From: a virus
Virus genome (UHGV): UHGV-0382853
Strand: one strand, 5' to 3'
Length of the DNA: 40,325 nt
The notes under the pieces were generated by a model. It saw only the letters and a program-made list of their open reading frames with translations. It made no database searches and was not told where the DNA came from. The position numbers and the translations under genes were made by a program. Every line of letters starts with the position of its first letter. Within the stretch, counting starts at the first letter, position 1. Positions 4,348 to 39,612 of the stretch are shown here, piece after piece.

Positions 4348-6857
4348 TGCGGAATATCTCCGGAGAATCTCTGACGCTTCTGTGTCAGATCAAGAACAAC
4401 GGGAGAACCATCATCTTTTAGCAGATAACCAGTACCAAGTTTCACCAGGTACTGACTATCGCCGTAACTTTGCAAACCATACTGACCATGCGGTGTTTTT
4501 ATCCCTGTGCCAACAACTTGTTCATTCCAAGCCTGATTAACCTGCTTATCGAATTGCTCTGCAGACATTCCCCACGGCAAAAGAACATTCCCCATTCCGT
4601 TATAGTCATGCACGCCACCTGTAGCTACGTTAACAGCCTGTTTCCAGATATCATTGTCAATTTCGCCTGATACCACGCCTTTTTTCGCCATCACACCAGC
4701 GTAATAGTCCTTTGCGATCTCGTATGCCATTGATGCCCCCTGAGCATCACCAGCAAATGCATCCTTCACCATGTCAGAAAACTCAAGGCGGAGATCAGCA
4801 TCTTTAGGCATCGGAATACCTTTCGCGTCATCAGTACCTTTACGAGCCGCCGCGCCAGCAAGAATTGTCTGCGCAGCGGTTTCAGGAGACACGGAAACAT
4901 CCGGATTAAACCAGTTTTTTTCTGCCAAAATACCACCTGGCTTATCCATCAGTATCCCGGCAACGGCAGCAGATGGAGCGTTGGCACTGATCTGCTGTAG
5001 TGCTGACATATACACCTGCCCACCACCAGTGCTCTGCCTGATGGTATCGAGATATGCTGCCTGTTGGGAAACGGGCGCATCACGAAAGAAAACACCGATC
5101 TGATTGGCCTCGTCTTTGGAAAAGAACGTCAGTGGAGTGCCATATGACTTAGCAAGGTCACTGACCTGAGCAGCACGCAAGGCAACGCTCTGTCCAAAGT
5201 TATCCTTATTGCTCATGTCGATAGGCTTTGCCTGTCCGGCGGCAAGAGAGAACTGTACAGGATCAGCCTGTCGCTGCTTTATCACCTGACTTGCAGCCGA
5301 AACAACGTTGTCATAAAGAGCGGCTCGTGCCGCATAACCCTCCCCTGTCTCACCAGTATCCGGGCGTAATTGCTCAACATATGCTGTAATGCTGCTTGTC
5401 GGCATGTTGCGGAAAGAGCCTATATACTGTCCGGCGATTTGCGTATTTCTGAACTCGGTATATCGCAGGTTTCCTTCTCTTACTCCATAAGCTGCAATAA
5501 AATCAGCCTCACCAGGTGGGTTAGGAAATTCAACGCCACGCATATACGCAGCTGTCGCATCGCGAACCTGGCTGTCAATCATCGTTTTATATTCAGCCTG
5601 CTGCTGCCGACGCAGTTGATCCGCCTGTCGCATAAAACTTGCCTGCGCCTCAGGAGATGCCGCATCGAATGCTGCATTACCGGTATAGCGTTTGGTGTTG
5701 GTTGGAATTGTTGATAAACCAAGTGCTGCACTGACACCAGCAGTTAACTGCTGATCACTGTATGGCTGGCTACCGTTCTCATGATGGATAATGGCTGCAC
5801 AAAGCGCCTTCAGGGTATCAGGATTAGATGCATCGAGAGGCTCATCAGCAGAAACGCCAAGTTGTTCGCACACTGCTTTGATATACGACATAGTGTCATT
5901 TTTATCAGTAGGCGGTGCCCAGCGATTAATTATCTCGCTGACGGTATCAATACCCTGCCTCTGATACGACATCAGGTTCCGCCCTAATGCACGAATCCCG
6001 TGTTCAGGTGTTTCGAATTTAGCAAATCGACCATCATCACCGGTCTGGCCTACCCACGGATTAGTTTTGCTGTATTCGAGATTTCCTGGGTTATTGTTGC
6101 GTATGCCACGGGCACGCTCGGAAGAGTCACTATCTGCTACAGCACGGCGAGCTCCAGCAGCAGTATCACTTAACTCGCCATTACTTTGGATGAATGCGGT
6201 CGCATTGTTTGCCGACCACTGGGACAATGCAGCATCAGCAACCTTCTCTTTAAACTCGATTTTCTTGGCCTGGATTTGCTCGTCACTCCAGCCATGTGCA
6301 ATGCCGTAATCCTCAATTTGCTGGAAAGTTTGCTTATTAGCCAATACGTATGCGGCGTTGTCGCCATACAATGCTGCGGCATTTTTACCATTGTTCAGCA
6401 GCGTAGCCTGAAACTGGCCTTCTTCGTAGGCATTTATTTGCCCTATCTCGTGCCGCCCTGCCTGCGTAGTGAACTGAATGCGCTGCTGCTGCGCCTGCTG
6501 CATGAAAGCATTACGAGCCTGTTCATCCGGCAGCGACATAGCCAGTTGTTCGACCTGAGCATCAAACTGCTGCGTATACTCCTGACCTTTTCCAATAGCA
6601 TTTTTCCCTTTCAGGTTAAGCAATCCTGTTTCAGGATTATTCAGCAGATCACTGCTTATCTGACTGAGGTTAAGAGATGCCTCCTGAGCCAGAGCGATAT
6701 TGGCACGCTGTTTTGCCTGACCAAAAACATCAATTGCCTCTGTCCCTGCCCGAACAAAAGCATCACCAATACCTGGCTGAGAAAACGTCTGCAAGCCTGC
6801 TGACTGAACTCCACGGCTCTGAACCTGACGGCCGGATACTGTTGGTACGACTGGCAT
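4344..6857 (-). CDS. internal virion protein (T7 gp15/gp16-like), possible enzymatic domain
   Basis: Start moved to ATG at 6857, which has a GGAGG SD 7 nt upstream (track start 6932 is GTG); contains a conserved-looking motif RGIRNNNPGNLEY...W.G...FETPEHGIRA. Confidence 0.5.
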   Translation of the reverse strand: MPVVPTVSGRQVQSRGVQSAGLQTFSQPGIGDAFVRAGTEAIDVFGQAKQRANIALAQEASLNLSQISSDLLNNPETGLLNLKGKNAIGKGQEYTQQFDAQVEQLAMSLPDEQARNAFMQQAQQQRIQFTTQAGRHEIGQINAYEEGQFQATLLNNGKNAAALYGDNAAYVLANKQTFQQIEDYGIAHGWSDEQIQAKKIEFKEKVADAALSQWSANNATAFIQSNGELSDTAAGARRAVADSDSSERARGIRNNNPGNLEYSKTNPWVGQTGDDGRFAKFETPEHGIRALGRNLMSYQRQGIDTVSEIINRWAPPTDKNDTMSYIKAVCEQLGVSADEPLDASNPDTLKALCAAIIHHENGSQPYSDQQLTAGVSAALGLSTIPTNTKRYTGNAAFDAASPEAQASFMRQADQLRRQQQAEYKTMIDSQVRDATAAYMRGVEFPNPPGEADFIAAYGVREGNLRYTEFRNTQIAGQYIGSFRNMPTSSITAYVEQLRPDTGETGEGYAARAALYDNVVSAASQVIKQRQADPVQFSLAAGQAKPIDMSNKDNFGQSVALRAAQVSDLAKSYGTPLTFFSKDEANQIGVFFRDAPVSQQAAYLDTIRQSTGGGQVYMSALQQISANAPSAAVAGILMDKPGGILAEKNWFNPDVSVSPETAAQTILAGAAARKGTDDAKGIPMPKDADLRLEFSDMVKDAFAGDAQGASMAYEIAKDYYAGVMAKKGVVSGEIDNDIWKQAVNVATGGVHDYNGMGNVLLPWGMSAEQFDKQVNQAWNEQVVGTGIKTPHGQYGLQSYGDSQYLVKLGTGYLLKDDGSPVVLDLTQKRQRFSGDIPQ

Positions 6858-7402
6858 TATAATCCTCCGGGTAATCTGGTTCCTGCTGCTGCCCCGATTG
6901 GCGCAGGGGTGCTTTGAGTAAACGGACTCCACGTCCCACCAAACATCTGGTACGCACCGTATGCCTTCAGAGGCGCAGTGAGCAATGTTGTTGCTGCTCC
7001 CACATTCCCCTGTTTACGGGCTGAACTGGCTTCTGCTTTATAGTTGGCAGCCTGAACCTGATAACCGTAAGCCTCGCGTTGCGCGTTATTCACCGTCGTC
7101 AGAGAATCAAGAGCGCCAAACTGGGCAGTGTCGCCAAATATATCCAGCGCGTTACCTGTAGATAAATCAGCGCCGGTAGCCCCCATTGTCGCCGCCTGTG
7201 TACCAAGCCGCTGTCGGGTCTCTCTGCGTCGTTGCTCAGCTTCAGCGTTACCTCTGTTTATTGCATCATTTGCCTGAGCTGTGGCTATATCTGCGTTCGC
7301 TTCTGCAACCTTCGAGGCATACTTTCCCTGTTGGTACTGGGTGTATGCCTGAATGCCACTCATGGCGAGCATTGCGCCACCAGCAATAACCGGATCGCAC
7401 AT
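6857..7402 (-). CDS. internal virion protein A (T7 gp14-like)
   Basis: 181 aa; N-terminus MC...SGIQA and C-terminus APIGAAAGT resemble T7 gp14; GGAGAG SD. Confidence 0.5.
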   Translation of the reverse strand: MCDPVIAGGAMLAMSGIQAYTQYQQGKYASKVAEANADIATAQANDAINRGNAEAEQRRRETRQRLGTQAATMGATGADLSTGNALDIFGDTAQFGALDSLTTVNNAQREAYGYQVQAANYKAEASSARKQGNVGAATTLLTAPLKAYGAYQMFGGTWSPFTQSTPAPIGAAAGTRLPGGL

Positions 7403-7866
7403 TATTTTCTCTCCATGTGAAATCTGTGGAAATTAAGACCAAGAGCACCATAAGGCGCGGCTTCTTCAAGCCTGAACCCAAGCCAGTGCAGCCATGCTTT
7501 GGCAACATGGTTTCGCTCGTCGACGTAGTTTTCCAGGCGCGGATAAACTGCCAGCATCTGCTGCAATACAGGGCGGCAGTGGCGCAGAAATGTCTTCTGA
7601 TATTTTTCAATACGGCTGGTTCCTACCAGCCAGGGCGTACCATTGCCACCGATCATTGACGCCGGAGATACACCAAACATGGTTACCAGTTCTCCGTTCG
7701 CGAACCCTGACCAGGCCATAGTCGCAGTGCGAAGACCAACGCGCAGCGCATCTTCGGTAGTCATCAGCGATACCGCATACAGTTCGTCAATATCAGCCTG
7801 ACGAACATCCGGCAAAATCATCTGAAGATGCTCTTCGGTAGCGGGAATAATTTGAACATCGATCAT
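7402..7866 (-). CDS. virion protein (T7 gp13-like position)
   Basis: 154-aa ORF translationally coupled between the tail tubular B-like and gp14-like genes. Confidence 0.4.
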   Translation of the reverse strand: MIDVQIIPATEEHLQMILPDVRQADIDELYAVSLMTTEDALRVGLRTATMAWSGFANGELVTMFGVSPASMIGGNGTPWLVGTSRIEKYQKTFLRHCRPVLQQMLAVYPRLENYVDERNHVAKAWLHWLGFRLEEAAPYGALGLNFHRFHMERK

Positions 7867-12099: not shown

Positions 12100-12150
12100 C
12101 TTCTTTCTCCATTAGTGGGTCTGTTACGACCCACAGGTTAATAACAGGCG

Positions 12151-16470: not shown

Positions 16471-16547
16471 GTGGCATTAGCTCAGTTGGACAGAGCAACC
16501 GCCTTCTAAGCGGTTGGTCGCAGGTTCGAATCCTGCATGCCACGCCA
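16471..16547 (+). tRNA. tRNA-Arg (anticodon TCT, reads AGA)
   Basis: Cloverleaf by eye: acceptor stem gtggcat/atgccac, anticodon loop cTTCTAAg, T-arm ggttcgaatcc, 3' CCA encoded. Confidence 0.85.
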
Positions 16548-19394: not shown

Positions 19395-19733
19395 TCACAC
19401 TATTAATTTCGTTTCATGCCAGCCTTTAGTCACCCAGCATTGCGAGTCACCATTGCACGGGCATGAATTAACTGGAACTCTCTCGCCGCACTTACCGCAA
19501 CGTTTTCTGCTGATCGATTTTATACGCCCGCGCACGCGTGCATCATCCTGGCGGATCAGTAACGCTATATACTCACCAAATTCGTAAGGCGCACGCCCGG
19601 GGCGACGCGTGGCACAGTTACGCTCCAGCATTTCAATTTCCTGAGCATCAAGCACAATCTCCAGCTTACGTACACCGGATGCAGCTTGTCTGGCTCTCTG
19701 AGCGGCTTTGCGCTCTGCTGCTGATTTAGCCAT
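19395..19733 (-). CDS. zinc-ribbon protein, candidate late-gene regulator
   Basis: 112 aa; C-terminal CGKCGER...CPCNG...C cysteine cluster; last gene before terminator and terminase; AGGAAA SD. Confidence 0.4.
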   Translation of the reverse strand: MAKSAAERKAAQRARQAASGVRKLEIVLDAQEIEMLERNCATRRPGRAPYEFGEYIALLIRQDDARVRGRIKSISRKRCGKCGERVPVNSCPCNGDSQCWVTKGWHETKLIV

Positions 19734-20097
19734 TCTGATTTTCCTGCATCATGAGAAAGACAATCATGGCGGCGCGGAGTGGGTTGTTGTCTATGGTAAT
19801 AAATTTACAAAATCTATCCGCCTCCCACCAATATTCATTCTTCATTCCAGGATTATTTCTTTCGTATGCACATATGCTGATCTGATGTTTTGCGATTACA
19901 GGCCATGCAGCTCTCGGATCATTGCAGTAGTCAGGTAAAGGGTTTAATGGCTCAAAAGTTGTATCAGTATTTCCGTAATACCATTTGTTGGTGTTATTCC
20001 CTGATGTTTCCGGTTTACACGCCCAAAGGCCTTTAAAAATTATGTCTCCTACCATTCTGTTAATTTCAAAATCACTTAACTGTGAATAGTCCATCAT
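19726..20097 (-). CDS. DUF2591/NinX-like phage protein
   Basis: 123-aa ORF beginning MMDYSQLSDFEINRMVG; nin-region position. Confidence 0.4.
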   Translation of the reverse strand: MMDYSQLSDFEINRMVGDIIFKGLWACKPETSGNNTNKWYYGNTDTTFEPLNPLPDYCNDPRAAWPVIAKHQISICAYERNNPGMKNEYWWEADRFCKFITIDNNPLRAAMIVFLMMQENQNG

Positions 20098-20726
20098 TTC
20101 ACCTCCTGCGGCGGTTCTGGTAGAGGCATCCAGTGGGTTACGTCATCCAAGATATATCCTGATAAATACGTGAAAGCTCTATATTTTTTGTAATCAATTG
20201 GATTTACAACCCAGTTCCAATATGCGGCCACGATTTCACCTTGACTAAATGCCAGTAACATTTTGGTGTCTTCCGGCATTCGCTCACTACAGCTTATCCA
20301 ACCATCCGGAGTTACCGGAGAGTTGCCCGATAGCTTGTTCAACTTGTAATTCTGGCTTACAGGTTGGCTACCATGAAGCATGGCAGCACGGCAGGCATTC
20401 CAGCCTCTCACCTCTGCAATAGCGGCAACAGCATCGACCGCGTACATTTTAAGAGGGTTGGGCATTGGTTTTTCTTCAGGTACTACTGGCATTGGAGGGG
20501 CGGCGTATACTTCAATAATCCCATTATCAATAGGCCATTCTCCATCCTTGAGGTAGTCACTTGTGCCGTCAACTTGCTGTTCTGCAATGTGGAATGCACC
20601 TATTGGTTTTGCTTCCAGCGATGCCAGAGCAATTCGTGCCAGTTCCATTTGTTCACCACGGGTAAGCCCGTTTTCAAGCGGATTTTTAATGAACAATTCA
20701 ATACGTTCTTTGGTAATAGTGGTCAT
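20094..20726 (-). CDS. DUF551-domain phage protein
   Basis: C-terminal ...HWMPLPEPP motif typical of DUF551; AAGGAGT SD. Confidence 0.5.
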   Translation of the reverse strand: MTTITKERIELFIKNPLENGLTRGEQMELARIALASLEAKPIGAFHIAEQQVDGTSDYLKDGEWPIDNGIIEVYAAPPMPVVPEEKPMPNPLKMYAVDAVAAIAEVRGWNACRAAMLHGSQPVSQNYKLNKLSGNSPVTPDGWISCSERMPEDTKMLLAFSQGEIVAAYWNWVVNPIDYKKYRAFTYLSGYILDDVTHWMPLPEPPQEVK

Positions 20727-21989: not shown

Positions 21990-22603
21990 TGGTTGCCTCC
22001 TTTGCGAAGCTGGGCAGCAAAGTCAACTAACCACTCAGTCATTTCAACCTTCCCTACCAGGTCTGAACCAGGGTGCATACAGCAATCACTCTGCGCCGCT
22101 TTGAAATCCTTATACTCATATTCTTGGGCCACCAGATTTTTTGCAGCTTCTATAGCAGCATCCACCCCCTGCGCCCGCACTTCAGCCAGGCATTTGCGAA
22201 ACTCGGAAACGTACTGTTCGACGCTCATTCCCCAGCTAAGTGGACATTCATTGAATGTTTCGCCTTCGTGCTCTTCATCAGGTAGCTCTTTGGTAAAGAA
22301 CTCACGTTCAATGGCGTGGAGTGTGTCAGCAAAACGACGTAAGTTACTCAAACCTGTCGTAATGGAGAATTCAGGAGCATCACATCCGACGCCCATCTGC
22401 TGATAAACGGCGGTTTTGAAGGCCTTAAGCCCCGCATTCTCCGCCGCAAGCGCATTAGCACGCACCAGTTGCACTTCCAGTTGCGTTGCCAAATCGCTGA
22501 TCAGCTTTGCCACACTGCGCATATCAACGGCACCACATTCTGCTTTCAGTTCCGAAGCCATCTCATGCCCGGCGGCAACTAACCCTTTGATATTACTTTC
22601 CAT
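21986..22603 (-). CDS. hypothetical protein
   Basis: 205-aa ORF; coupled to the downstream gene (GTGA overlap). Confidence 0.4.
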   Translation of the reverse strand: MESNIKGLVAAGHEMASELKAECGAVDMRSVAKLISDLATQLEVQLVRANALAAENAGLKAFKTAVYQQMGVGCDAPEFSITTGLSNLRRFADTLHAIEREFFTKELPDEEHEGETFNECPLSWGMSVEQYVSEFRKCLAEVRAQGVDAAIEAAKNLVAQEYEYKDFKAAQSDCCMHPGSDLVGKVEMTEWLVDFAAQLRKGGNQ

Positions 22604-25357: not shown

Positions 25358-25372
25358 TCACCTATAAGGTAA
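25358..25372. promoter_or_regulatory. operator-like palindrome in immunity region
   Basis: tcacctataaggtaa (one-mismatch variant). Confidence 0.45.
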
Positions 25373-25475: not shown

Positions 25476-26060
25476 ATGAAAAGTATCCAGGACGTCCGCA
25501 GGCAAAATCTCAACGACTTGATCGACCGTGAATTCAATGGTGTTCAGACGCGGATGGCTGAAAAACTTGGAACTCAGGCAAATCTGGTAAACCGCTGGGC
25601 TCTTGGCAAGAAGGTTATCGGCGACCAGGTTGCGCGAAAAATTGAAGCTGCCGCCAATAAACCCCGTAACTGGCTTGATATCGATCGCTCGCTTTCTCAG
25701 GAAGGTTTTCAGCCTGTCGGACCAAGCGACATTGGTCAACTGGCGGCTCACAACCTGAAACGCTGGATGAGCGAAAGCCGCGACCTTTCAACGCAGGGAA
25801 AACTTCACCGCGCATCCGGCGTCGCCCAGGTAACAATCAGTCGCCTGTTAAACAATGAGGTCAGCGTTTCCATTTCCACCCTGGAGAATGTTGCATCCGC
25901 ATTCGGGCGTCACGGCTATGAATTACTGATTCACCCGCACGACCCTGCGACCATCAACTATGACCGCTCGCGCTACGCATTGTTACCCGAAACCGAGAAA
26001 GCAAAGATCGAAAGTTACATTGAATTTGTCATCAACCAGAACGAAAAAAACAAACAATAA
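25476..26060 (+). CDS. phage repressor, tandem-HTH type with no recognisable peptidase (autocleavage) domain
   Basis: 194 aa; two HTH-like segments (QTRMAEKLGTQANLVNRWALGKK and LHRASGVAQVTISRLLNNEVS); no S24-like Ser/Lys motifs seen; divergent from cro-like gene. Confidence 0.6.
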   Translation: MKSIQDVRRQNLNDLIDREFNGVQTRMAEKLGTQANLVNRWALGKKVIGDQVARKIEAAANKPRNWLDIDRSLSQEGFQPVGPSDIGQLAAHNLKRWMSESRDLSTQGKLHRASGVAQVTISRLLNNEVSVSISTLENVASAFGRHGYELLIHPHDPATINYDRSRYALLPETEKAKIESYIEFVINQNEKNKQ

Positions 26061-33679: not shown

Positions 33680-33976
33680 TCAAATAGAGAAATAAACACA
33701 AAAACAAAAAACAACAGGAACAGCAAAATCCAACAGACTTCCCACATCCCACACGCGTGGATCAAAACCTCCCCACCACGGCATGTTGATACGTTTCCCT
33801 TTCCCAAACTTTTCTATCCAGCGATATTCTGCCTGGGTGTGTTCACGCGCAATGAAGAACGTACAACCGGCTATCGCACCGTAAGCCCAGTTTCCGGTAA
33901 AAATACCAACCAGTACCTGAGCCACAAAAGCGCAAAGCGAGTGAAGAAATGGAGTGACATCAATGCTCTTAATCAT
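33680..33976 (-). CDS. small membrane protein co-transcribed with tailspike
   Basis: 98 aa, two hydrophobic segments; ATG overlaps the tailspike stop (ATGA). Confidence 0.45.
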   Translation of the reverse strand: MIKSIDVTPFLHSLCAFVAQVLVGIFTGNWAYGAIAGCTFFIAREHTQAEYRWIEKFGKGKRINMPWWGGFDPRVWDVGSLLDFAVPVVFCFCVYFSI

Positions 33977-36162
33977 GAAACTTCCCCATTGGTTGAAAAT
34001 ATGGCTCCTCCAACGCCAAGTGTATTTCGTGTTGTGCTCAACCTCAGAGGGCTGGAGTCAGAATTAGAATATCCTGTAGCAGAAATAAAAGATCCTCCAC
34101 TAATAGTCAACTGCGGAACATCGGCTATATCTGAATAAGTTCTGTCAGCAACAGTATTATTTATAGCCACATATGATCCAAAAAAACTTCTTATTGTTTG
34201 GTTTTTAACTTTACTTCCTTCAATGGTTATCCTACTACCACAGTCGGCAATAAATCCTGAATCTGCATCCAGCGTTGCATTCATAAAAGAAGCTTCAGAT
34301 CTCTCTACATCAATCCATCTAATATCTTTTGTGGGATTTGCACCAAATACATGACAAATATTAGAGTTAAACCTTACACCATCTTGGAGGTGCATTAATT
34401 TTTTTATATCTGTACCCCATAGCCTTGGAAAATTAACAGATGCTCCTGCATGGCAATCAAATCCCAGCTCAGCCCCTGAGATATCTACAGCCTTTCCTGA
34501 AATAACAGCACCAGTGTCTGCATTAACGGCTGTTCCACAATTGCGCATATCATTACCAGCAACATCAACGCAACCCGCACCATCAATACGCACACCAAGT
34601 GCACATCCATAAAAACCTTTTTCAATATTTGGTTCAAGGACTTTACCACTTGTTTCTGCATCACTTTCTTCAACGTCATGTCGTCTTGCATCAACATATG
34701 CTGTATGAATGCAGGTTAATCCACGATATGAGCAATGTATAGTTTTATGGTCGCGTATATTAACATTTGAACCATCTCTTACATTCCATCCTATATAACA
34801 ATAGCTTGCACTTGACCCCTGAAAATCTGCTTTAACATTATAAATACAATTAACTGACGCAACCGTACTCTCTGTGCACCGTTCAAACTTGCTTACAGGC
34901 ATTGATGCCTTGACATTATTTACCAGTTGCAGGGAAGAGTATCTGCTATAAGAAAAATCACATACGTAATACCCTTCTGGCATATATGCAGCAACACTTT
35001 CCTCATCAGGAGCACATCCGGTATGATATGCACTAATTTTTGCACCAAAACTACCATGAATTCCAACGTAGAACTTTCGAGCACCTGAATACGGATAGAA
35101 ATTAAGTTCAGCTTTTTGAGTTACAATAAATGCACAAACATCGCTATCATCTCTATTTTCTTCGATCTGAATAGCAAATACAGGACTTTTTGCTGCATCG
35201 CAAATGTAAAATAAATACTTGTATTCGTAATACGTTCTAACGATTTTAGTAAACAAACGAGTGTCAGAGAAAACCACTGAGTCTTCTGATGTTATTTTAA
35301 TCCAAGACAAATCAACACCTGAACTGAATTCAATTTGATAGTTGATAATATGCCCGGTCTTAATTCTTATTTCGCAGAAAGCATTACCACCATCCCACAT
35401 AGGTCTCATTGACTGGGCTGCAATGATTGCATCTTTGAGTGTAGGGTAATCACCCCATTCGCCAACAGTAATAACAAAAGTATAATATGAGTTAAAAACA
35501 GCGGCATTTTTGCCTTTGGATATCAACTCCTTAATCATAAAAATATTATCTTCGTAATCACAAGGAGAAATTATATCCCTCATTTTGCTTTGAAATGTTC
35601 GTTGTCTTGCCCCGCTTCCTGACGGTATAAACCAACCAAAACCACCAACAACCCCGGCGATTGCAGCATCGACATAATTACGCATTGAGCGATTATTTAC
35701 AGCATCCTGCTCAAGTGATGGATCTGCAAGGTTAGAAATTCTGTTTTGCTTTGCATCGTAATATTTTGCAAGCAGAGAGGGCTTCATCAATGCACGTCTG
35801 AACCACCCAAAACATTGCTGGATCAGCATCGTCAGGTAGTCAAAGGCATCTTCATGCACTTCGGGGAAAAATTTTCCCTGATTGCGAAGGTCTGTCTCCT
35901 GCACTACATCAAGCACACGATCTATCGTAATTCGCCATCCAGTAGCAAGCGGAGACGGAAGAACCACAGAACCGCCACTATAAGTGCCCGCCCCAGTTAC
36001 CGTATAACCGGTATCCAGGACCAATTCTGTTACGTTCCCGTTCAGGTCAGACACCTGAACAACCAGGTCTGATTTTCTGAAAATTCGAAAAGTATACGGA
36101 AACGATGTCGTAACGCCGTTACCGGTGTATTCGTTGTGGTCAACTTCGGTTGAGACCGTCAT
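33973..36162 (-). CDS. tailspike / tail fibre with conserved N-terminal anchor and probable beta-helix depolymerase C-terminal domain
   Basis: 729 aa; N-terminus ...YTGNGVTTSFPYTF...LDTGYTV...ITIDRVL...ETDLRNQG resembles podoviral tail-fibre N-terminal domain; the C-terminal two thirds are AT-rich with Cys/Asn/Ser/Gly-rich repeats. Confidence 0.65.
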   Translation of the reverse strand: MTVSTEVDHNEYTGNGVTTSFPYTFRIFRKSDLVVQVSDLNGNVTELVLDTGYTVTGAGTYSGGSVVLPSPLATGWRITIDRVLDVVQETDLRNQGKFFPEVHEDAFDYLTMLIQQCFGWFRRALMKPSLLAKYYDAKQNRISNLADPSLEQDAVNNRSMRNYVDAAIAGVVGGFGWFIPSGSGARQRTFQSKMRDIISPCDYEDNIFMIKELISKGKNAAVFNSYYTFVITVGEWGDYPTLKDAIIAAQSMRPMWDGGNAFCEIRIKTGHIINYQIEFSSGVDLSWIKITSEDSVVFSDTRLFTKIVRTYYEYKYLFYICDAAKSPVFAIQIEENRDDSDVCAFIVTQKAELNFYPYSGARKFYVGIHGSFGAKISAYHTGCAPDEESVAAYMPEGYYVCDFSYSRYSSLQLVNNVKASMPVSKFERCTESTVASVNCIYNVKADFQGSSASYCYIGWNVRDGSNVNIRDHKTIHCSYRGLTCIHTAYVDARRHDVEESDAETSGKVLEPNIEKGFYGCALGVRIDGAGCVDVAGNDMRNCGTAVNADTGAVISGKAVDISGAELGFDCHAGASVNFPRLWGTDIKKLMHLQDGVRFNSNICHVFGANPTKDIRWIDVERSEASFMNATLDADSGFIADCGSRITIEGSKVKNQTIRSFFGSYVAINNTVADRTYSDIADVPQLTISGGSFISATGYSNSDSSPLRLSTTRNTLGVGGAIFSTNGEVS

Positions 36163-36266
36163 GTTAAATCTCCAGATAGTCGCAGCACCCGTTGCGCCGC
36201 ATATCTGGTTATTCTATTACCTGAAAAACCACATATGGATAAAAAGGCTGTAAATACGAATAGATA

Positions 36267-36281
36267 TTACCTTTCAGGTAA
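36267..36281. promoter_or_regulatory. operator-like palindrome between tailspike and antirepressor
   Basis: ttacctttcaggtaa; half-site ttacctgaa at about 36217. Confidence 0.5.
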
Positions 36282-36320
36282 TTTGCAAAACGTGCTGGAT
36301 AGCAAACAAATTATTTGCTA

Positions 36321-36336
36321 CTGTATAAATATACAG
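36321..36336. promoter_or_regulatory. LexA (SOS) box
   Basis: taCTGTataaatatACAGtt: exact CTGT-N8-ACAG with AT-rich spacer, 22 bp upstream of the ATG at 36358. Confidence 0.75.
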
Positions 36337-36357
36337 TTATTGCATGGAGAAGATAAG

Positions 36358-36615
36358 ATGCAGCGGTATCACTATCCACTGGAAGACGGATTTACCGAAA
36401 GGATTCACACGCCGGGAGGCGTCAGGTCACTGGTGGAGGGATCGCACTTGATGAAATTACTCCGGGATCTCGATAAGGATGGATTTAATGTCGATGGCCC
36501 ACTTGCCGAACTGACTGCACTGATTAACTACGTTACCAGCTCACAGATGTCTATGCGGGATCTGCAAACACATCTCGACTATTGTGCCGAACAATTACGA
36601 AAACAAACCCGGTAA
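36358..36615 (+). CDS. small antirepressor-like protein, paralog of the C-terminal domain of the AntA-type antirepressor
   Basis: 85 aa from ATG 36358 (GGAGAAG SD); aligns with the C-terminus of the 37766..38422 product (IH.P.GV...LM.LL..L..DG..V.G..AELT...LRD.QTH); the track start 36235 lies upstream of the LexA box and is discarded. Confidence 0.6.
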   Translation: MQRYHYPLEDGFTERIHTPGGVRSLVEGSHLMKLLRDLDKDGFNVDGPLAELTALINYVTSSQMSMRDLQTHLDYCAEQLRKQTR

Positions 36616-36622
36616 ATTTAAA

Positions 36623-36638
36623 GGCCGCAAGAGCGGCC
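36623..36638. terminator. bidirectional terminator hairpin
   Basis: ggccgc-aaga-gcggcc flanked by T-rich sequence on both strands; between convergent genes. Confidence 0.5.
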
Positions 36639-37366
36639 TATCGTTTCGCTTTGTGCTCGTCCCAGCACGTTTTGCACCATGCCATTAAGCCATCCGCATT
36701 TTGATTATTAGGGTAAAAGCTTGTTCGTTTTCTGCGGACATTACAAATTGGGCACCACTTCATATGGCGTGTATTCTTTGGGCCATCGAGACACCTTGCA
36801 CACCACTTAGTCAATCCATCTGGATTTTTTGACGATTTCCTGAATTTTTCATATGGTAGGTTTATTCTGCATCGCAAGCACTGCTTGCTACCACTTGAAA
36901 CTCTGTTAGCTGATTCTTCTTTTGGCGGCGATACAGAAGGTATTCTTGCTGGCTCTGATACTGCCTGAGGTGCTTTTTTAGATGACTGAGACGATATGTC
37001 ATCACCAGGGAATCTTCCATGATATGCCGGACGCATTGACACTCCAGGTGGAAGCTCAGCTGTAAACGGCTTTGGCTGAATCAGTTGCCTCTCTTTTGCT
37101 AACTCCTGCTGTTTATAATATGTCTGGATTACCGCACTATCATAAGCAGGAGGTGCGGAAATATTAGGCGCATTACCTCCAGTTTTTTGAAACTGAGTAG
37201 AGGTGTGTTCTATCACCTGTGTACGATTAATCGTTATCTCCCCATCTTCGGTCTTTATCGTTTTGTTATGATTAACGACCGTACGATCAGAGATCTTAGT
37301 CTTGTTCTGGTTGATAACGTAAATAATCACCGCAACCACACCAACAACTATCCAGAAAACTTCCAT
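36638..37366 (-). CDS. membrane-anchored protein with duplicated C-terminal zinc-ribbon (CxxC-N-CxxC x2)
   Basis: 242 aa; N-terminal TM helix (FWIVVGVVAVIIYVI); C-terminal repeats C.RC...DGL..WC..C; GAGGAAAA SD. Confidence 0.5.
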   Translation of the reverse strand: MEVFWIVVGVVAVIIYVINQNKTKISDRTVVNHNKTIKTEDGEITINRTQVIEHTSTQFQKTGGNAPNISAPPAYDSAVIQTYYKQQELAKERQLIQPKPFTAELPPGVSMRPAYHGRFPGDDISSQSSKKAPQAVSEPARIPSVSPPKEESANRVSSGSKQCLRCRINLPYEKFRKSSKNPDGLTKWCARCLDGPKNTRHMKWCPICNVRRKRTSFYPNNQNADGLMAWCKTCWDEHKAKR

Positions 37367-37386
37367 TGCTTTTCCTCACAATAACA

Positions 37387-37401
37387 TTACCTTAAAGGTA
37401 A
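37387..37401. promoter_or_regulatory. operator-like palindrome
   Basis: ttaccttaaaggtaa, about 21 bp upstream of the minus-strand start at 37366. Confidence 0.5.
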
Positions 37402-37479
37402 TATCTTGCTTTCAGGTGATCAAGCGTTAAACGCAATCAACCAAATACGGTTGATTTTAATATTTCTTCGCGTTTATCA

Positions 37480-37494
37480 TTACCTTTGCGGTAA
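37480..37494. promoter_or_regulatory. operator-like palindrome
   Basis: ttacctttgcggtaa at the head of the antirepressor leader. Confidence 0.5.
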
Positions 37495-37585
37495 ATTTAC
37501 ATTGCACTCCTCTTGTGCCATAGTAATCGGGCACTGGCAAAATCCAGTGCCGGGATTGGTCTCCCGGATTACTAAGTGGCGCATA

Positions 37586-37607
37586 CCACGCCAGACGTGG
37601 TTTTTTT
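37586..37607 (+). terminator. rho-independent terminator inside the antirepressor leader
   Basis: ccacg-ccaga-cgtgg followed by ttttttt. Confidence 0.55.
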
Positions 37608-37765
37608 ATGCGTATAGCACAGTCATGCCAGAATTATGGTGGGCTGAATGGGGGTCCGAAAGGACGCCGGTACCACTTAGGCCGGTAAGACCAACTCCGT
37701 TCAGTTCACCACCATCTGATTGGTCTCAGCGGTGGTGATGTAATTCGCTAAGTGGAGACGCCATC

Positions 37766-38422
37766 ATGAACGCTCAACTCATCCCCGTATTCAACGGCAC
37801 TATATCTAACGAAACAGCCCTACTTTGTAATGCCCGCGATCTGCACACTTTTTTAGGTGTTAAAAAGGTGTTTGCAGCATGGATTACAAATCGCATATCA
37901 GAATACGAATTCATTGAAAATCAAGACTATATTTTGCTTTCCAATTTGGGAAAGCAAACATCTGGTAGAGGCGGCCACAACCGCAAAGAGTACCACCTCA
38001 CCCTTGATACAGCCAAAGAGCTGGCGATGGTCGAGCGTAACGAAAAAGGTCGCCAGGTGCGACGCTACTTCATTGAATGCGAGAAACGTTTAAGACAACA
38101 AGAAACAAAAGTGGAGAAGGTCTTGTCAGGCTTCATGCCCGCCATTATGGAGGCGATCAAGCTGGAAGACAAAAAAGAATACAGCGCCCCACTGAAGCCC
38201 GGCTACCGCAGCCTGATTCATTCTCCGTCTGGTGTTCTCGGACTGACGGAGAACTCACTGCTGATGAATCTGCTGAACCAGTTACAGGAAGACGGGCACG
38301 ACGTATCGGGCGCGGCGGCGGAGCTGACCACCATGTTCTGCTACATCGTCGGTGTGAGCAAATGCCTGCGTGATATCCAGACGCACGCGGAGTACATCAA
38401 CGACAAGGCAGGGTTCTTCTGA
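37766..38422 (+). CDS. antirepressor (AntA/AntB N-terminal domain)
   Basis: 218 aa; N-terminal IPVFNGT...LCNARDLHTFLGVKKVFAAWITNRISEYEFIENQDYIL typical of AntA domain; C-terminal domain paralogous to the 36358 product. Confidence 0.7.
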   Translation: MNAQLIPVFNGTISNETALLCNARDLHTFLGVKKVFAAWITNRISEYEFIENQDYILLSNLGKQTSGRGGHNRKEYHLTLDTAKELAMVERNEKGRQVRRYFIECEKRLRQQETKVEKVLSGFMPAIMEAIKLEDKKEYSAPLKPGYRSLIHSPSGVLGLTENSLLMNLLNQLQEDGHDVSGAAAELTTMFCYIVGVSKCLRDIQTHAEYINDKAGFF

Positions 38423-38431
38423 CAGAACGGC

Positions 38432-38453
38432 GGCACAGGGATGTGCCTTTAAA
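38432..38453 (+). terminator. possible terminator after antirepressor
   Basis: ggcaca-ggga-tgtgcc followed by tttaaata. Confidence 0.4.
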
Positions 38454-38495
38454 TAATTCTGTACAGATTGCAGACCGGGGGTGAATAGCGTACTA

Positions 38496-38510
38496 TTACC
38501 TTAAAGGTAA
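38496..38510. promoter_or_regulatory. operator-like palindrome
   Basis: ttaccttaaaggtaa, about 26 bp upstream of the ATG at 38537. Confidence 0.5.
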
Positions 38511-38536
38511 ACCATGTGTTTACATGAGGAGGAGAT

Positions 38537-38746
38537 ATGGGATTTTGGTTCGCTCGTACAAAAACGAGGGATAATGCACCCAGCCCTCAGGCAAAAAATG
38601 CAGAAGTTCCGGCGTCAGCGCAGGTTAACAAGCGTGGTGGTGTGTATATCTCATCACAGCAAATTTCTGAGCTTCCTGAGGTTAAGGAGATGCGTCGTCT
38701 CGCTGCTGCAATCGTTAAACAGGATCTTGCCACTGTAAGGAAATAG
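38537..38746 (+). CDS. small hydrophilic protein
   Basis: 69 aa; strong SD GAGGAGG 5 nt upstream; stop overlaps the next gene's GTG start. Confidence 0.45.
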   Translation: MGFWFARTKTRDNAPSPQAKNAEVPASAQVNKRGGVYISSQQISELPEVKEMRRLAAAIVKQDLATVRK

Positions 38747-39612
38747 TGTTGTTAGCTCTTCTAATTATCCCCATTCTGGTTAGTGGTTATATTATGATAA
38801 CCGCTAACCAGTATCATTATTTCCGTTTATACCGACATGAAGGCCAGCTTCTTTATATGAAAGTAGCTGCATTAGGTACATATTGCCTTGTTGCTTCGGT
38901 AATAATTGCCGCATTTATAAAATATAAATATCCTGATTTTCACCTAGTTCACGATATGGTGGAAACTTTTAATGTAACGTCAAAACCAGAAACAGATAGA
39001 ATTTACATGTGGCTGCTTCTTCTCTCAGCCACATCCATTTGCTTCTCTTTGTGTTATGTGTCTGTTGTGTGGGTGAAAGATTTTCTTCTTGGTTGTTTTT
39101 ATAAACGTGATATTTACGAGCAAAAAACAGAGGCAATGAAGGCCAGAGTACTGCGAAAAACTTACTCGCAAGGTTCTTTAGACTTACTATTGCTTGATGC
39201 TATTGAATCGGATCCTAAACGACCAATGCTGATTACTTTATCATCAAACAAAGTGTATGTTGGAATAATAAATGGTTCTGGTGAACCAACGGAAAATCAG
39301 GGTCCGCATCAGCACATATCTTTTGTTCCTTTAATGTCAGGATACAGGAACAAAGACAACTTATCTGTCACATTCACTAATGCTTATCCAGGAGAAATAC
39401 AGGTCAAGCGGACTGCAGCAATAAGAGGAATTAGCAGAAAGAAAGTGCCAGGACTTGAGATCATGGTGTCTATTGACGAAATAAGTTATATATCATGGTT
39501 TGATTTTGAAGTATATAAAGCAACAAATAACAAAGTAGAATCCAGGGGGCACGTTATTCGTGTTACCAAAAATGGAAGAAATATATATCAAAGAAATAGC
39601 AAAAAAGAATAG
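38746..39612 (+). CDS. membrane protein (3 N-terminal TM helices plus about 170-aa soluble domain), AT-rich
   Basis: 288 aa; GTG start coupled to the upstream stop; AT-rich codon usage unlike neighbouring genes; followed by a strong terminator. Confidence 0.5.
   Translation: MLLALLIIPILVSGYIMITANQYHYFRLYRHEGQLLYMKVAALGTYCLVASVIIAAFIKYKYPDFHLVHDMVETFNVTSKPETDRIYMWLLLLSATSICFSLCYVSVVWVKDFLLGCFYKRDIYEQKTEAMKARVLRKTYSQGSLDLLLLDAIESDPKRPMLITLSSNKVYVGIINGSGEPTENQGPHQHISFVPLMSGYRNKDNLSVTFTNAYPGEIQVKRTAAIRGISRKKVPGLEIMVSIDEISYISWFDFEVYKATNNKVESRGHVIRVTKNGRNIYQRNSKKE

What the first reader, a model, noticed from the sequence alone, without database searches (positions are those of the whole stretch)
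36358..38422. Two antirepressor paralogs under different control: a short SOS-controlled form and a full-length AntA-type form behind operator palindromes
The 85-aa and 218-aa proteins share a C-terminal domain, but only the longer one has the AntA N-terminal domain. Their promoters differ: a LexA box for the short form, two TTACC-N5-GGTAA sites plus a leader terminator for the long form. This suggests a layered induction switch, or that one copy is an antirepressor against a related heteroimmune prophage.
Basis: partly seen in the sequence, partly recalled or inferred. Interest (0 to 1): 0.55.

Follow-up and report, generated by a model that had tools for sequence, protein, structure and literature searches.

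The report
Two differently wired phage antirepressors
This prophage carries two antirepressors built on the same repressor-binding domain: a known small one switched on by DNA damage, and a longer one held in check by a P1-type antisense RNA, a well-precedented design with some new details.

Summary
The 85-aa and 218-aa proteins share a C-terminal domain (43% identity over 74 aa, E 1e-16), and only the long one has an AntA N-domain. The window is a phiV10/epsilon15-like temperate podophage.

The short gene is the ortholog of the SPC32H antirepressor Ant (PDB 5D50, E 3.5e-46). It sits behind a perfect LexA box, and an SPC32H-type Rep lies at 25476-26060.

Its "leader terminator" is the IsrK sRNA (37531-37607). 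A P1-type C4 antisense RNA follows (37632-37716). The a' and b' segments of C4 pair with a1/b1 in IsrK and with a2/b2 just upstream of the long gene; b2 overlaps its Shine-Dalgarno sequence.

In 80 related loci, seven leader types carry three a and four b alleles. These alleles covary perfectly and recombine with each other. The C-domain stays 90-100% identical while the N-domain swaps (Bro-N, AntA, P22_AR_N, ORF6N).

TTACC-N5-GGTAA is a genome-wide operator: 15 sites, all intergenic. One also lies upstream of the short gene. The site at 37387 belongs to an inserted gene, not to the long gene.

The closest precedents are P1/P7 immI, Gifsy-1 isrK-anrP and N15. This is a new variant of a known kind, of moderate interest.

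The parts
25476..26060 (+). Rep, the SPC32H-type prophage repressor (194 aa). It is the presumed target of both antirepressors.
   Evidence: phmmer against PDB 5D50_A 'Repressor': E 3.9e-42, residues 1-190. Operator sites flank the gene at 25358, 25406, 26118 and 26180.
36267..36281 (.). TTACC-N5-GGTAA operator between the tailspike gene and the short ant gene.
   Evidence: Exact match. Conserved at the same place in SPC32H. An exact copy is present in 59 of 80 related loci.
36321..36336 (.). LexA box CTGTATAAATATACAG, overlapping the promoter region of the short ant gene.
   Evidence: CTGT-N8-ACAG is kept in 79 of 80 loci. It aligns with the SPC32H ant LexA box.
36358..36615 (+). Short antirepressor (85 aa), the ortholog of SPC32H Ant.
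   Evidence: PDB 5D50_E 'Anti-repressor protein': E 3.5e-46, residues 2-84. tblastn gives 87% identity to SPC32H ant. PHROG 450.
36622..36639 (.). GC-rich hairpin, a bidirectional terminator at the left edge of the inserted block.
   Evidence: Absent from phiv142-3, which lacks the insertion.
36638..37366 (-). Inserted 242-aa gene with an N-terminal hydrophobic segment and C-terminal Cys-rich zinc-ribbon-like repeats. It is not part of the antirepressor system.
   Evidence: PHROG 6762, unknown function, E 6e-151. Present in 21 of 80 related loci, always between short ant and isrK.
37387..37401 (.). Operator 20 nt upstream of the 242-aa gene. It belongs to the insertion, not to the long ant promoter.
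37480..37494 (.). Operator abutting the -35 hexamer of the isrK promoter. It is conserved in all seven leader types.
37496..37524 (+). Promoter-like site PisrK: TTTACA, 17 nt, CATAGT, with TG before the second hexamer. The predicted start is at about 37531.
   Evidence: The sequence is nearly invariant across leader types. The Rfam isrK model starts at 37531.
37531..37607 (+). IsrK sRNA, equivalent to the a1/b1 region with an intrinsic terminator. a1 GATTGGTCTC is at 37554-37563 in a hairpin loop. b1 CTAAGTGG is at 37572-37579. The terminator is at 37585-37607.
   Evidence: RF01394: 67.7 bits against a gathering score of 50. RF03163 c4-a1b1: 39.9 bits against 46.7, E 5.5e-8. Motif positions. 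Terminator.
37632..37716 (+). C4-type antisense RNA. b' CCACTTAG is at 37673-37680 in the second hairpin loop. a' AGACCAA is at 37688-37694 in a single-stranded stretch. The 3' end reads ...CACCACCA.
   Evidence: RF01695: 61.2 bits against a gathering score of 45. The consensus fold has 6 pairs with compensatory changes. Motif positions.
37718..37757 (+). C4 targets on the long-ant mRNA. a2 GATTGGTCTC is at 37718-37727. b2 CTAAGTGG is at 37748-37755 and overlaps the Shine-Dalgarno GGAG at 37754-37757.
37766..38422 (+). Long antirepressor (218 aa). The AntA N-domain spans aa 22-92. The SPC32H-Ant-like C-domain spans aa 137-213.
   Evidence: Pfam PF08346: 91.3 bits. PDB 5D50_E: E 4.7e-14, residues 137-213. 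PHROG 450: E 3.6e-36, residues 135-216.
38496..38510 (.). Operator upstream of the next operon (69-aa and 288-aa ORFs of unknown function).

Best explanation
The window is a phiV10/epsilon15-like temperate podophage. Its repressor Rep is not switched off by self-cleavage but by antirepressors. It carries two of them, built on one homologous Rep-binding domain and wired to different sensors.

1. The 85-aa protein is the SPC32H-type Ant. LexA sits on its promoter. DNA damage removes LexA, Ant is made, binds Rep and takes it off its TTACC-N5-GGTAA operators, and the prophage is induced.

2. The 218-aa protein joins an AntA-type N-domain to the same kind of C-domain. It sits in a P1-type immI module.
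- Transcription starts at a promoter whose -35 abuts a Rep operator.
- Most transcripts end at the IsrK terminator and yield the IsrK sRNA, which carries the sites a1 and b1.
- Read-through yields the C4 RNA. Its a' and b' segments pair with a2 and b2 on the same mRNA. Because b2 overlaps the Shine-Dalgarno sequence, the long antirepressor is not translated while cognate C4 is present.
- IsrK carries the same two sites, so it can titrate C4.

The a/b alleles differ between related phages that share the same Rep, as with P1 and P7. C4 therefore sets a second immunity specificity. A resident prophage silences the long antirepressor of an incoming phage only if the alleles match. Otherwise the incoming antirepressor disables the resident Rep.

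Shown here:
- the protein homologies;
- the RNA family membership;
- the complementarity and its covariation;
- the positions of the operators and the LexA box.

Inferred:
- that the C-domain of the long protein binds this Rep;
- that C4 is processed and acts on translation;
- that the biological role is anti-immunity and second immunity.
For: Short form:
- 5D50_E hit, E 3.5e-46.
- Rep hit to 5D50_A, E 3.9e-42.
- The LexA box is conserved in 79 of 80 loci and aligned with that of SPC32H.
- The same position beside the tailspike gene as SPC32H ant.
- The SPC32H Ant-Rep mechanism is summarised in PMC9638917 and PMC7380047.

Long form, protein:
- C-domain hit to 5D50_E, E 4.7e-14, and 43% identity to the short form.
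- The C-domain is 90-100% identical across 89 copies while the N-domain is swapped: Bro-N (two types), AntA, P22_AR_N and ORF6N.
- In the phage collection every record with this domain also has a short-type Ant: 35 records, 53 places.
- The ZX5 ORF4 protein (Bro-N N-domain) is identical to the window's long protein over the last 80 residues. Overexpressing it lowered lysogens from 10^9 to 10^6 (PMC9782041). The paper reports the ZX5 Rep as the same sequence as those of phiV10 and phiv142-3, which are 99% identical to this window's Rep.

Long form, RNA control:
- isrK scores 67.7 bits and C4 61.2 bits, both above their gathering scores.
- The C4 stem has 6 compensatory pairs.
- GATTGGTCTC occurs only twice in the 40-kb window, at a1 and a2. 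On the + strand CTAAGTGG occurs three times, at b1, at b2 and at one unrelated position (22236). Their complements lie in C4.
- Across seven leader types, cognate helices are 7 bp for a and 7-9 bp for b. Non-cognate helices are 3-6 bp for a and 4-7 bp for b. Three a alleles and four b alleles combine freely.

Precedents and conservation:
- Gifsy-1 has the same isrK-C4-antirepressor order. IsrK in trans activated anrP translation 139-fold there, and a processed RNA downstream of IsrK (STnc1160) is complementary to IsrK (PMC4825925).
- The same layout is kept in a Klebsiella phage whose Rep is only 45% identical.
Against: - No binding or expression data exist for this phage.
- The AlphaFold model of the long protein was too poor to use (pLDDT 42), and no model of a complex could be made. 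Whether the long C-domain keeps the Rep-contact surface is therefore untested, and short and long domains are only 43% identical.
- The Rep operator abuts the only conserved promoter of the module. If Rep represses that promoter tightly, little C4 would be made in a lysogen and C4-based immunity would be weak. P1 solves this with a second, constitutive promoter. The only other promoter-like site here (37451-37480) straddles the insertion boundary and is not conserved.
- There is no icd-like ORF between C4 and ant as in P1.
- In Gifsy-1 the authors explain activation by IsrK through structural remodelling of the mRNA and translation of orf45, not through titration of a C4 RNA.
Confidence: 0.6

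Rival explanations
1. The long form is a feed-forward commitment amplifier for the phage's own induction, not an inter-phage weapon. SOS makes the short Ant, and Rep leaves the operator at the isrK promoter. IsrK then accumulates and titrates C4, and the long antirepressor is translated. It keeps Rep inactive even if LexA recovers. This is compatible with the best explanation and could hold alongside it.
For: - The Rep operator directly abuts the -35 of PisrK in all seven leader types.
- In relatives without the insertion, the short ant stop codon is 28 nt from that operator with no terminator between. SOS transcription would therefore run into isrK.
- In Gifsy-1, IsrK in trans turns on anrP translation and AnrP induces the prophage.
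Against: - It does not explain why a and b alleles diversify and recombine among phages with the same Rep, or why some prophages carry two or three cassettes with different alleles.
- SPC32H and epsilon15 are inducible phages with only the short gene, so the long form is not needed for induction.
Confidence: 0.3
2. The long form targets a different repressor, that of a co-resident or competing prophage, as Fels-1 FsoA acts on the Gifsy-2 repressor.
For: - Short and long domains are only 43% identical although they sit in one genome with one Rep.
- Antirepressor cross-talk between unrelated prophages is documented (PMC3121763).
- The AntA N-domain is about 93% identical to that of Stx-phage antirepressors.
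Against: - In the phage collection the C-domain occurs only in phages that also have the short Ant.
- It is 90-100% conserved wherever Rep is 99% identical, and it has diverged (53%) where Rep has diverged (45%).
- ZX5 ORF4, with an identical C-domain, shifts ZX5's own lysis-lysogeny balance.
- Stx-phage matches cover only the N-domain.
Confidence: 0.1
3. The long protein is not an antirepressor. The shared C-domain serves only as a tetramerisation module (SPC32H Ant is a tetramer). The AntA/Bro-N-type N-domain does an unrelated DNA-binding or host-takeover job.
For: - The function of Bro-N, AntA and ORF6N domains is poorly understood.
- Residues invariant between the short and long domains could be fold or oligomer residues rather than Rep contacts.
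Against: - Five unrelated N-domains are fused to one almost invariant C-domain. This points to the C-domain as the part that defines function in this phage lineage.
- Natural stand-alone C-domain-type proteins and a short/long hybrid exist.
- Overexpression of ZX5 ORF4 lowers lysogeny 1000-fold.
- P1, Gifsy-1 and N15 place antirepressors behind the same kind of RNA control.
Confidence: 0.08

Closest known systems
SPC32H Ant-Rep system (Kim & Ryu 2013, J Virol; Kim et al. 2016, PNAS; PDB 5D50/5D4Z). The primary papers are not held in the library; the details are from my own knowledge and from PMC9638917 and PMC7380047.
   Same: The short gene is the ortholog: 87% identity, the same size, the same LexA box, the same place beside the tailspike gene, and the same operator motif upstream. 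Rep is a homolog.
   Different: - Rep is only 42% identical.
- SPC32H has no isrK, no C4 and no long form.
P1/P7 immI operon, c4-icd-ant (Citron & Schuster 1990, Cell; Biere et al. 1992, Genes Dev). From my own knowledge, and cited in PMC7313666.
   Same: - A C4-family RNA lies in the leader of an antirepressor gene.
- a'/b' are complementary to an upstream a1/b1 and a downstream a2/b2, with b2 over a ribosome-binding site.
- Allelic a/b differences occur between phages that share the main repressor.
- A main-repressor operator sits at the operon promoter.
   Different: - There is no icd ORF; b2 lies directly on the ant Shine-Dalgarno sequence.
- The a1/b1 segment carries its own terminator and so forms a separate sRNA (IsrK).
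- The antirepressor protein is unrelated to P1 Ant1/2 in its repressor-binding part.
- No second constitutive promoter was identified.
Gifsy-1 isrK-orf45(STnc1160)-anrP, plus LexA-controlled GfoA (PMC4825925; PMC3121763).
   Same: - The same RNA order: isrK, C4, antirepressor gene.
- A prophage with one SOS-controlled small antirepressor and one RNA-controlled larger one.
- AnrP has an ORF6N N-domain, one of the N-domains also found fused to the Ant C-domain in relatives of this window.
   Different: - GfoA and AnrP show no similarity to each other (E 8.2) or to the proteins here.
- Here the two antirepressors are paralogs in their C-domain.
- Gifsy-1 is a lambdoid siphophage with a CI-N-terminal-type repressor.
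N15 anti-immunity system: CA RNA-controlled antA/antB plus LexA-controlled antC (Ravin et al. 1999, Mol Microbiol; Mardanov & Ravin 2007, J Bacteriol). From my own knowledge; AntC under LexA control is mentioned in PMC3121763.
   Same: One phage holds an AntA-family antirepressor under a small processed RNA and a separate SOS-controlled antirepressor.
   Different: - The N15 RNA acts by transcription termination, in the P4 CI style.
- The two N15 antirepressors are not known to share a domain.
- This was not tested here.
P22 immI (mnt-arc-ant with sar RNA).
   Same: It is a second immunity region built around an antirepressor. A P22-type cassette (P22_AR_N N-domain, sar RNA, Arc/Mnt-like genes) fused to the same Ant C-domain occurs in the relative TL-2011b.
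   Different: This cassette is not present in the window. Its control is by proteins plus sar RNA rather than by C4.

Membership tests
SPC32H-type small antirepressor Ant (PDB 5D50 chain E; PHROG 450) | Full-length sequence homology to SPC32H Ant, about 86 aa. | tested here: met
   Short form: E 3.5e-46, residues 2-84 of 85, 87% identity. Long form: domain-level only, residues 137-213, E 4.7e-14.
SPC32H-type small antirepressor Ant (PDB 5D50 chain E; PHROG 450) | LexA box at the promoter (SOS control). | tested here: met
   Short form: CTGTATAAATATACAG at 36321-36336, aligned with the SPC32H box. Long form: there is no LexA box. The only other CTGT-N8-ACAG matches in the window are at 12121 and 16663.
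SPC32H-type small antirepressor Ant (PDB 5D50 chain E; PHROG 450) | A co-resident SPC32H-type Rep. | tested here: met
   Window 25476-26060 against 5D50_A: E 3.9e-42.
SPC32H-type small antirepressor Ant (PDB 5D50 chain E; PHROG 450) | Tetramer that binds the Rep C-terminal domains and releases Rep from DNA. | not testable with these tools
   Complex modelling was not available. The monomer model of the long form was unusable (pLDDT 42).
C4 antisense RNA (Rfam RF01695; P1/P7 c4) | Covariance-model score above the curated threshold. | tested here: met
   61.2 bits against 45, full-length match 1-87.
C4 antisense RNA (Rfam RF01695; P1/P7 c4) | Long closing stem and inner hairpins supported by covariation. 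| tested here: met
   25 predicted pairs, 6 with compensatory changes, among 8 sequences.
C4 antisense RNA (Rfam RF01695; P1/P7 c4) | a'/b' complementary to a2/b2 in front of the regulated gene, with b2 over the ribosome-binding site, and to an upstream a1/b1. | tested here: met
   Positions. Cognate helices are 7 bp (a) and 7-9 bp (b). Non-cognate helices are 3-6 bp (a) and 4-7 bp (b).
C4 antisense RNA (Rfam RF01695; P1/P7 c4) | Processing of the precursor by RNase P, and translational block with Rho-dependent polarity. | not testable with these tools
   Only the conserved 3' ...CACCACCA is visible.
P1 immI operon | An icd ORF between c4 and ant, to which ant translation is coupled. | tested here: not met
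   C4 ends at 37716 and the ant ATG is at 37766. No ORF lies between, and b2 sits on the ant Shine-Dalgarno sequence.
IsrK sRNA (Rfam RF01394) / c4-a1b1 (RF03163) | Model score above threshold, with two 5' hairpins and an intrinsic terminator. | tested here: met
   isrK: 67.7 bits against 50. Terminator at 37585-37601 plus a T run. c4-a1b1 scores only 39.9 bits against 46.7, so that model is below threshold.
AntA/AntB antirepressor N-domain (Pfam PF08346) | Domain score above the gathering threshold. | tested here: met
   91.3 bits against 27, residues 22-92 of the long form. There is no hit in the short form.
Rep operator TTACC-N5-GGTAA | Over-represented palindrome confined to intergenic regions and clustered around rep. 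| tested here: met
   15 sites against 0.66 expected. All 15 are intergenic, and 4 flank rep. The same motif is found around SPC32H rep, and no exact copy is found in Gifsy-1. Binding by Rep itself was not tested.

The most novel reading that the evidence does not exclude
Among E. coli phiV10-like prophages that share one Rep, the a and b segments of the C4 RNA form a combinatorial code for a second immunity. Three a alleles and four b alleles are seen in seven combinations. An incoming phage whose code is not matched by the resident prophage expresses its long antirepressor. That protein strips the shared Rep, lets the incoming phage grow and wakes the resident prophage. Prophages respond by stacking two or three cassettes with different codes. 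The SPC32H-type Rep-binding domain is a portable adaptor that this lineage has plugged into three regulatory chassis: LexA, P1-type C4/IsrK, and P22-type sar/Arc/Mnt.
Probability: 0.4. Interest if true: 0.55.

Novelty: new variant of a known kind. Interest (0 to 1): 0.42.

Why it matters
The locus is common. 866 of 5,426 complete E. coli genomes hold a match, and 89 hold the full layout. Yet it is annotated as 'hypothetical protein' plus 'antirepressor', with no RNA genes.

Reading it correctly links three separately studied systems into one modular picture: SPC32H Ant-Rep, P1 c4 and Gifsy-1 IsrK. A repressor-specific adaptor domain is shared, while the sensor is interchangeable (SOS, antisense RNA or protein repressors).

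It also suggests that the Gifsy-1 'orf45' region is a C4 RNA and that IsrK is its a1/b1 decoy. That gives a simpler reading of the published IsrK data.

The covarying a/b alleles give a ready-made, testable system for how related prophages in one species exclude or induce each other. This bears on the spread of prophage-borne traits in pathogenic E. coli.

Tried and rejected
- AlphaFold2 on the long protein with a 12-row alignment gave pLDDT 42 and pTM 0.26. The model was too poor, so no fold search was run.
- I tested whether the Gifsy-1 pair GfoA/AnrP shows the same paralogy. It does not (E 8.2). AnrP is also unrelated to the long form here.
- RNAduplex energies on 35-50 nt segments did not separate cognate from non-cognate pairs, because unrelated GGTGGTG/CACCACC pairing dominates. 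I replaced this with counts of contiguous helices on the a and b segments.
- The search for homologous proteins with the C-domain returned only 23 clusters, mostly fragments and ORFs of about 95 aa called from an internal Met. That was useful for the hybrid P0016 but not for a census of domain architectures.
- The primary papers on SPC32H (J Virol 2013, PNAS 2016) and on epsilon15 (Virology 2007) are not held. The Rep-contact residues of Ant and any published operator sequence could therefore not be checked.
- The 110-aa ORF at 37406-37738 that overlies isrK/C4 has no Pfam family. It is treated as spurious.
- The upstream promoter-like site at 37451-37480 was rejected as a conserved second promoter, because its -35 lies inside the insertion.
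- PADLOC found nothing for the neighbouring unknown genes.
Full report
**What is there**

The window is a temperate podophage of the phiV10/epsilon15 group (Uetakevirus). The closest records over 36100-38800 are Escherichia phages TL-2011b, phiv142-3, HEMP4, ZX5 and phiV10. The finding's interval lies just beyond the start of the tailspike gene (33973-36162, minus strand). It holds:
- an 85-aa ORF at 36358-36615;
- a 242-aa ORF on the minus strand at 36638-37366;
- a 218-aa ORF at 37766-38422.

**Check of the observation**

The two plus-strand proteins do share a C-terminal domain: 32 of 74 residues are identical, E 1e-16. Only the long one has the Pfam AntA domain (residues 22-92, 91.3 bits).

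A perfect LexA-type palindrome, CTGTATAAATATACAG, lies at 36321-36336.

TTACC-N5-GGTAA occurs at 37387 and 37480, but these are 2 of 15 sites in the window against 0.66 expected. All 15 are intergenic, and four flank the repressor gene. One site lies upstream of the short gene (36267) and one downstream of the long gene (38496). The motif is therefore a genome-wide operator, not a mark of the long gene.

**The short form**

It is the ortholog of the SPC32H antirepressor Ant, whose complex with its repressor has been solved (PDB 5D50_E; E 3.5e-46; 87% identity).

The window also encodes the matching repressor at 25476-26060 (5D50_A, E 3.9e-42).

The promoter region aligns with that of SPC32H ant, including the LexA box and the upstream operator. 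The LexA box is kept in 79 of 80 related loci.

In SPC32H, Rep is not cleaved. It is inactivated by Ant, whose gene is under LexA control. [quoted passage not shown] These points come from my own knowledge of Kim & Ryu 2013 and Kim et al. 2016, and are summarised in PMC7380047 and PMC9638917. This part of the finding is already known biology.

**The long form: RNA control**

Rfam places two RNAs in the leader, both above their curated thresholds: IsrK at 37531-37607 (67.7 bits) and a C4 antisense RNA at 37632-37716 (61.2 bits). The 'leader terminator' is the IsrK terminator.

The anatomy is that of the P1/P7 immI leader:
- The C4 loop CCACTTAG (b') is complementary to CTAAGTGG at 37572 (b1, in IsrK) and at 37748 (b2).
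- The C4 stretch AGACCAA (a') is complementary to TTGGTCT inside GATTGGTCTC at 37554 (a1, an IsrK hairpin loop) and at 37718 (a2).
- GATTGGTCTC occurs nowhere else in the window. On the + strand CTAAGTGG has one further, unrelated copy at 22236.
- b2 overlaps the Shine-Dalgarno GGAG (37754-37757) of the long gene.

A promoter-like site (TTTACA, 17 nt, CATAGT, 37496-37524) would start transcription at the first base of the IsrK model. The operator at 37480-37494 abuts its -35 hexamer.

**Comparative evidence**

I fetched 80 viral contigs encoding a short Ant of 98-100% identity.
- Of the 75 with at least 2.5 kb downstream, 71 carry at least one copy of the long C-domain and 10 carry two.
- The order is always short ant, an optional inserted gene, isrK, C4, long gene.
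- The leaders fall into seven types. a1, a2 and the complement of a' change together: GGCGT, GGTCT (this window) or TGCAC.
- b1, b2 and the complement of b' also change together: CTAAGTGG (this window), CTAAAAGG, CTACAAAGG or CTAGTAGG.
- The a and b alleles occur in seven combinations.
- Cognate helices are 7 bp for a and 7-9 bp for b. Non-cognate helices are 3-6 bp for a and 4-7 bp for b.
- The C4 closing stem shows six pairs with compensatory changes.

This is the pattern that defines the heteroimmunity of P1 and P7 (Citron & Schuster 1990, my own knowledge). It is strong evidence that the RNA pairing is functional and under diversifying selection.

**The long form: protein**

Residues 137-213 hit the SPC32H Ant chain (E 4.7e-14).

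Across 89 copies the C-domain is 90-100% identical while the N-domain is exchanged:
- Bro-N type 1: 45 copies;
- AntA: 17 copies, including this window;
- Bro-N type 2: 15 copies;
- P22_AR_N: 6 copies;
- ORF6N: 2 copies.

The AntA part here is about 93% identical to that of Stx-phage antirepressors, whose C-terminal parts are different. Stand-alone C-domain-type proteins and a natural short/long hybrid exist.

The C-domain therefore behaves as the lineage-specific adaptor, and the N-domain as a generic exchangeable part.

There is one piece of experimental support. ZX5 ORF4 (Bro-N N-domain) is identical to the window's long protein over the last 80 residues. When overexpressed during infection it lowered lysogens from 10^9 to 10^6. 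The paper reports the ZX5 Rep as the same sequence as those of phiV10 and phiv142-3, which are 99% identical to this window's Rep (PMC9782041). The authors noted neither the short gene nor the RNAs.

**The insertion**

The 242-aa gene, its operator at 37387 and the hairpin at 36622-36639 form a block of about 0.85 kb. The block is present in 21 of the 80 loci and absent from phiv142-3. In phiv142-3 the short gene's stop codon is 28 nt from the isrK operator, with no terminator between.

**Most likely mechanism**

The short Ant couples induction to SOS.

The long antirepressor is held silent by Rep at the promoter, by the IsrK terminator and by C4 pairing over its ribosome-binding site. IsrK carries the same a and b sites and can titrate C4.

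The experimental precedent is Gifsy-1. Rfam finds the same isrK-C4 order upstream of anrP there. IsrK in trans raised anrP translation 139-fold, and a processed RNA downstream of IsrK (STnc1160) is complementary to IsrK (PMC4825925).

Because the a/b alleles differ among phages with one Rep, I favour a second-immunity or anti-immunity role as in P1/P7. A commitment-amplifier role is a compatible alternative.

Steps that are inferred, not shown:
- binding of the long C-domain to Rep;
- processing of C4;
- the direction of Rep's effect at PisrK, whose operator is centred at about -44.

**Comparison with known systems**

The closest systems are SPC32H Ant-Rep (short form), P1/P7 immI, Gifsy-1 isrK-anrP with GfoA, and N15 (RNA-controlled antA/antB with LexA-controlled antC, my own knowledge).

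The design 'one SOS antirepressor plus one RNA-controlled antirepressor' is therefore precedented.

Three things appear not to have been described:
- The two antirepressors are paralogs in the repressor-binding domain. This is not so in Gifsy-1 (E 8.2).
- The same domain is also fused into a P22-type cassette with sar RNA in TL-2011b.
- The C4 alleles are combinatorial, and cassettes are stacked.

The layout is old. A Klebsiella phage with a Rep 45% identical, a short Ant 61% identical and a long C-domain 53% identical has the same order, with a different gene inserted at the same spot.

**Verdict**

The short half is already known. The long half is a new variant of a known kind of module. Interest is moderate, at 0.42.

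Noticed in passing
window 36612-37473 (ORF 36638-37366, minus strand): An inserted block of about 0.85 kb lies between short ant and isrK. It carries a 242-aa gene with an N-terminal hydrophobic segment and C-terminal Cys-rich repeats that weakly resemble endonuclease VII/Lar-like zinc ribbons (PHROG 6762, unknown function). It has its own operator (37387) and terminator. It is present in 21 of 80 related loci. A Klebsiella relative (L089) has a different 283-aa gene at the same spot, so this is an insertion hotspot for accessory genes.
   Followed up: partly
window, 15 sites from 16134 to 38496: TTACC-N5-GGTAA occurs 15 times (0.66 expected), and every site is intergenic, in front of most operons. 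This resembles the dispersed C1 operators of P1. The same motif is used in SPC32H although its Rep is only 42% identical.
   Followed up: partly
L001 (TL-2011b) 6025-7438: A third antirepressor cassette of P22 immI type: a P22_AR_N N-domain fused to the same Ant C-domain, a sar antisense RNA (RF00262, 44.8 bits), and Arc-like and Mnt-like small genes. HEMP4 and several IMG/VR loci also carry a second or third cassette, some in inverted orientation.
   Followed up: partly
L004 (phiV10) 19551-20230: In phiV10 the long gene is split. The Ant C-domain matches in two pieces in different frames (PhiV10p23 plus the 30-aa PhiV10p22). This is either a frameshift or a sequencing error in the reference genome.
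   Followed up: no
window 37406-37738; L087 (ZX5) 1313-1426; L004 (phiV10) 20336-20403: ORFs lying over isrK/C4 are annotated as proteins in public records ('ash family protein' in ZX5, 'similar to SF0880' in phiV10). RefSeq E. coli genomes list no RNA feature at this locus. The 110-aa ORF here has no Pfam match and is probably spurious.
   Followed up: partly
L086 (Gifsy-1) 34131-34214: The published 'orf45'/STnc1160 region of Gifsy-1 scores 69 bits as a C4 antisense RNA, and IsrK overlaps the Rfam c4-a1b1 model. The published activation by IsrK could therefore be read as a decoy titrating a C4 RNA.
   Followed up: partly
protein P0016: A natural 84-aa hybrid. Its first half resembles the short Ant and its second half the long C-domain. 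In the Klebsiella phage L089 the short Ant carries the long-type motif DGHDVSGAAAE. Both point to recombination or gene conversion between the two paralogs.
   Followed up: no
window 38514-39612: A 69-aa ORF and a 288-aa ORF (PHROG 5739 and 3630, unknown function, no PADLOC or Pfam hit) sit behind the operator at 38496. They occupy the place where relatives carry a second antirepressor cassette. TL-2011b has a YafO-toxin-like gene there.
   Followed up: partly
window 16471-16544: A tRNA gene (73.3 bits; the anticodon loop reads CUUCUAA, so probably tRNA-Arg UCU, as annotated in phiv142-3 and SPC32H).
   Followed up: no
window 37766-38040: The AntA N-domain coding region is about 90% identical in DNA to lambdoid phages (PDP110P1/P2), and the protein is about 93% identical to Stx-phage antirepressors. 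The leader upstream of the ATG is Uetakevirus-specific. The recombination joints therefore sit at the start codon and at the domain boundary.
   Followed up: partly
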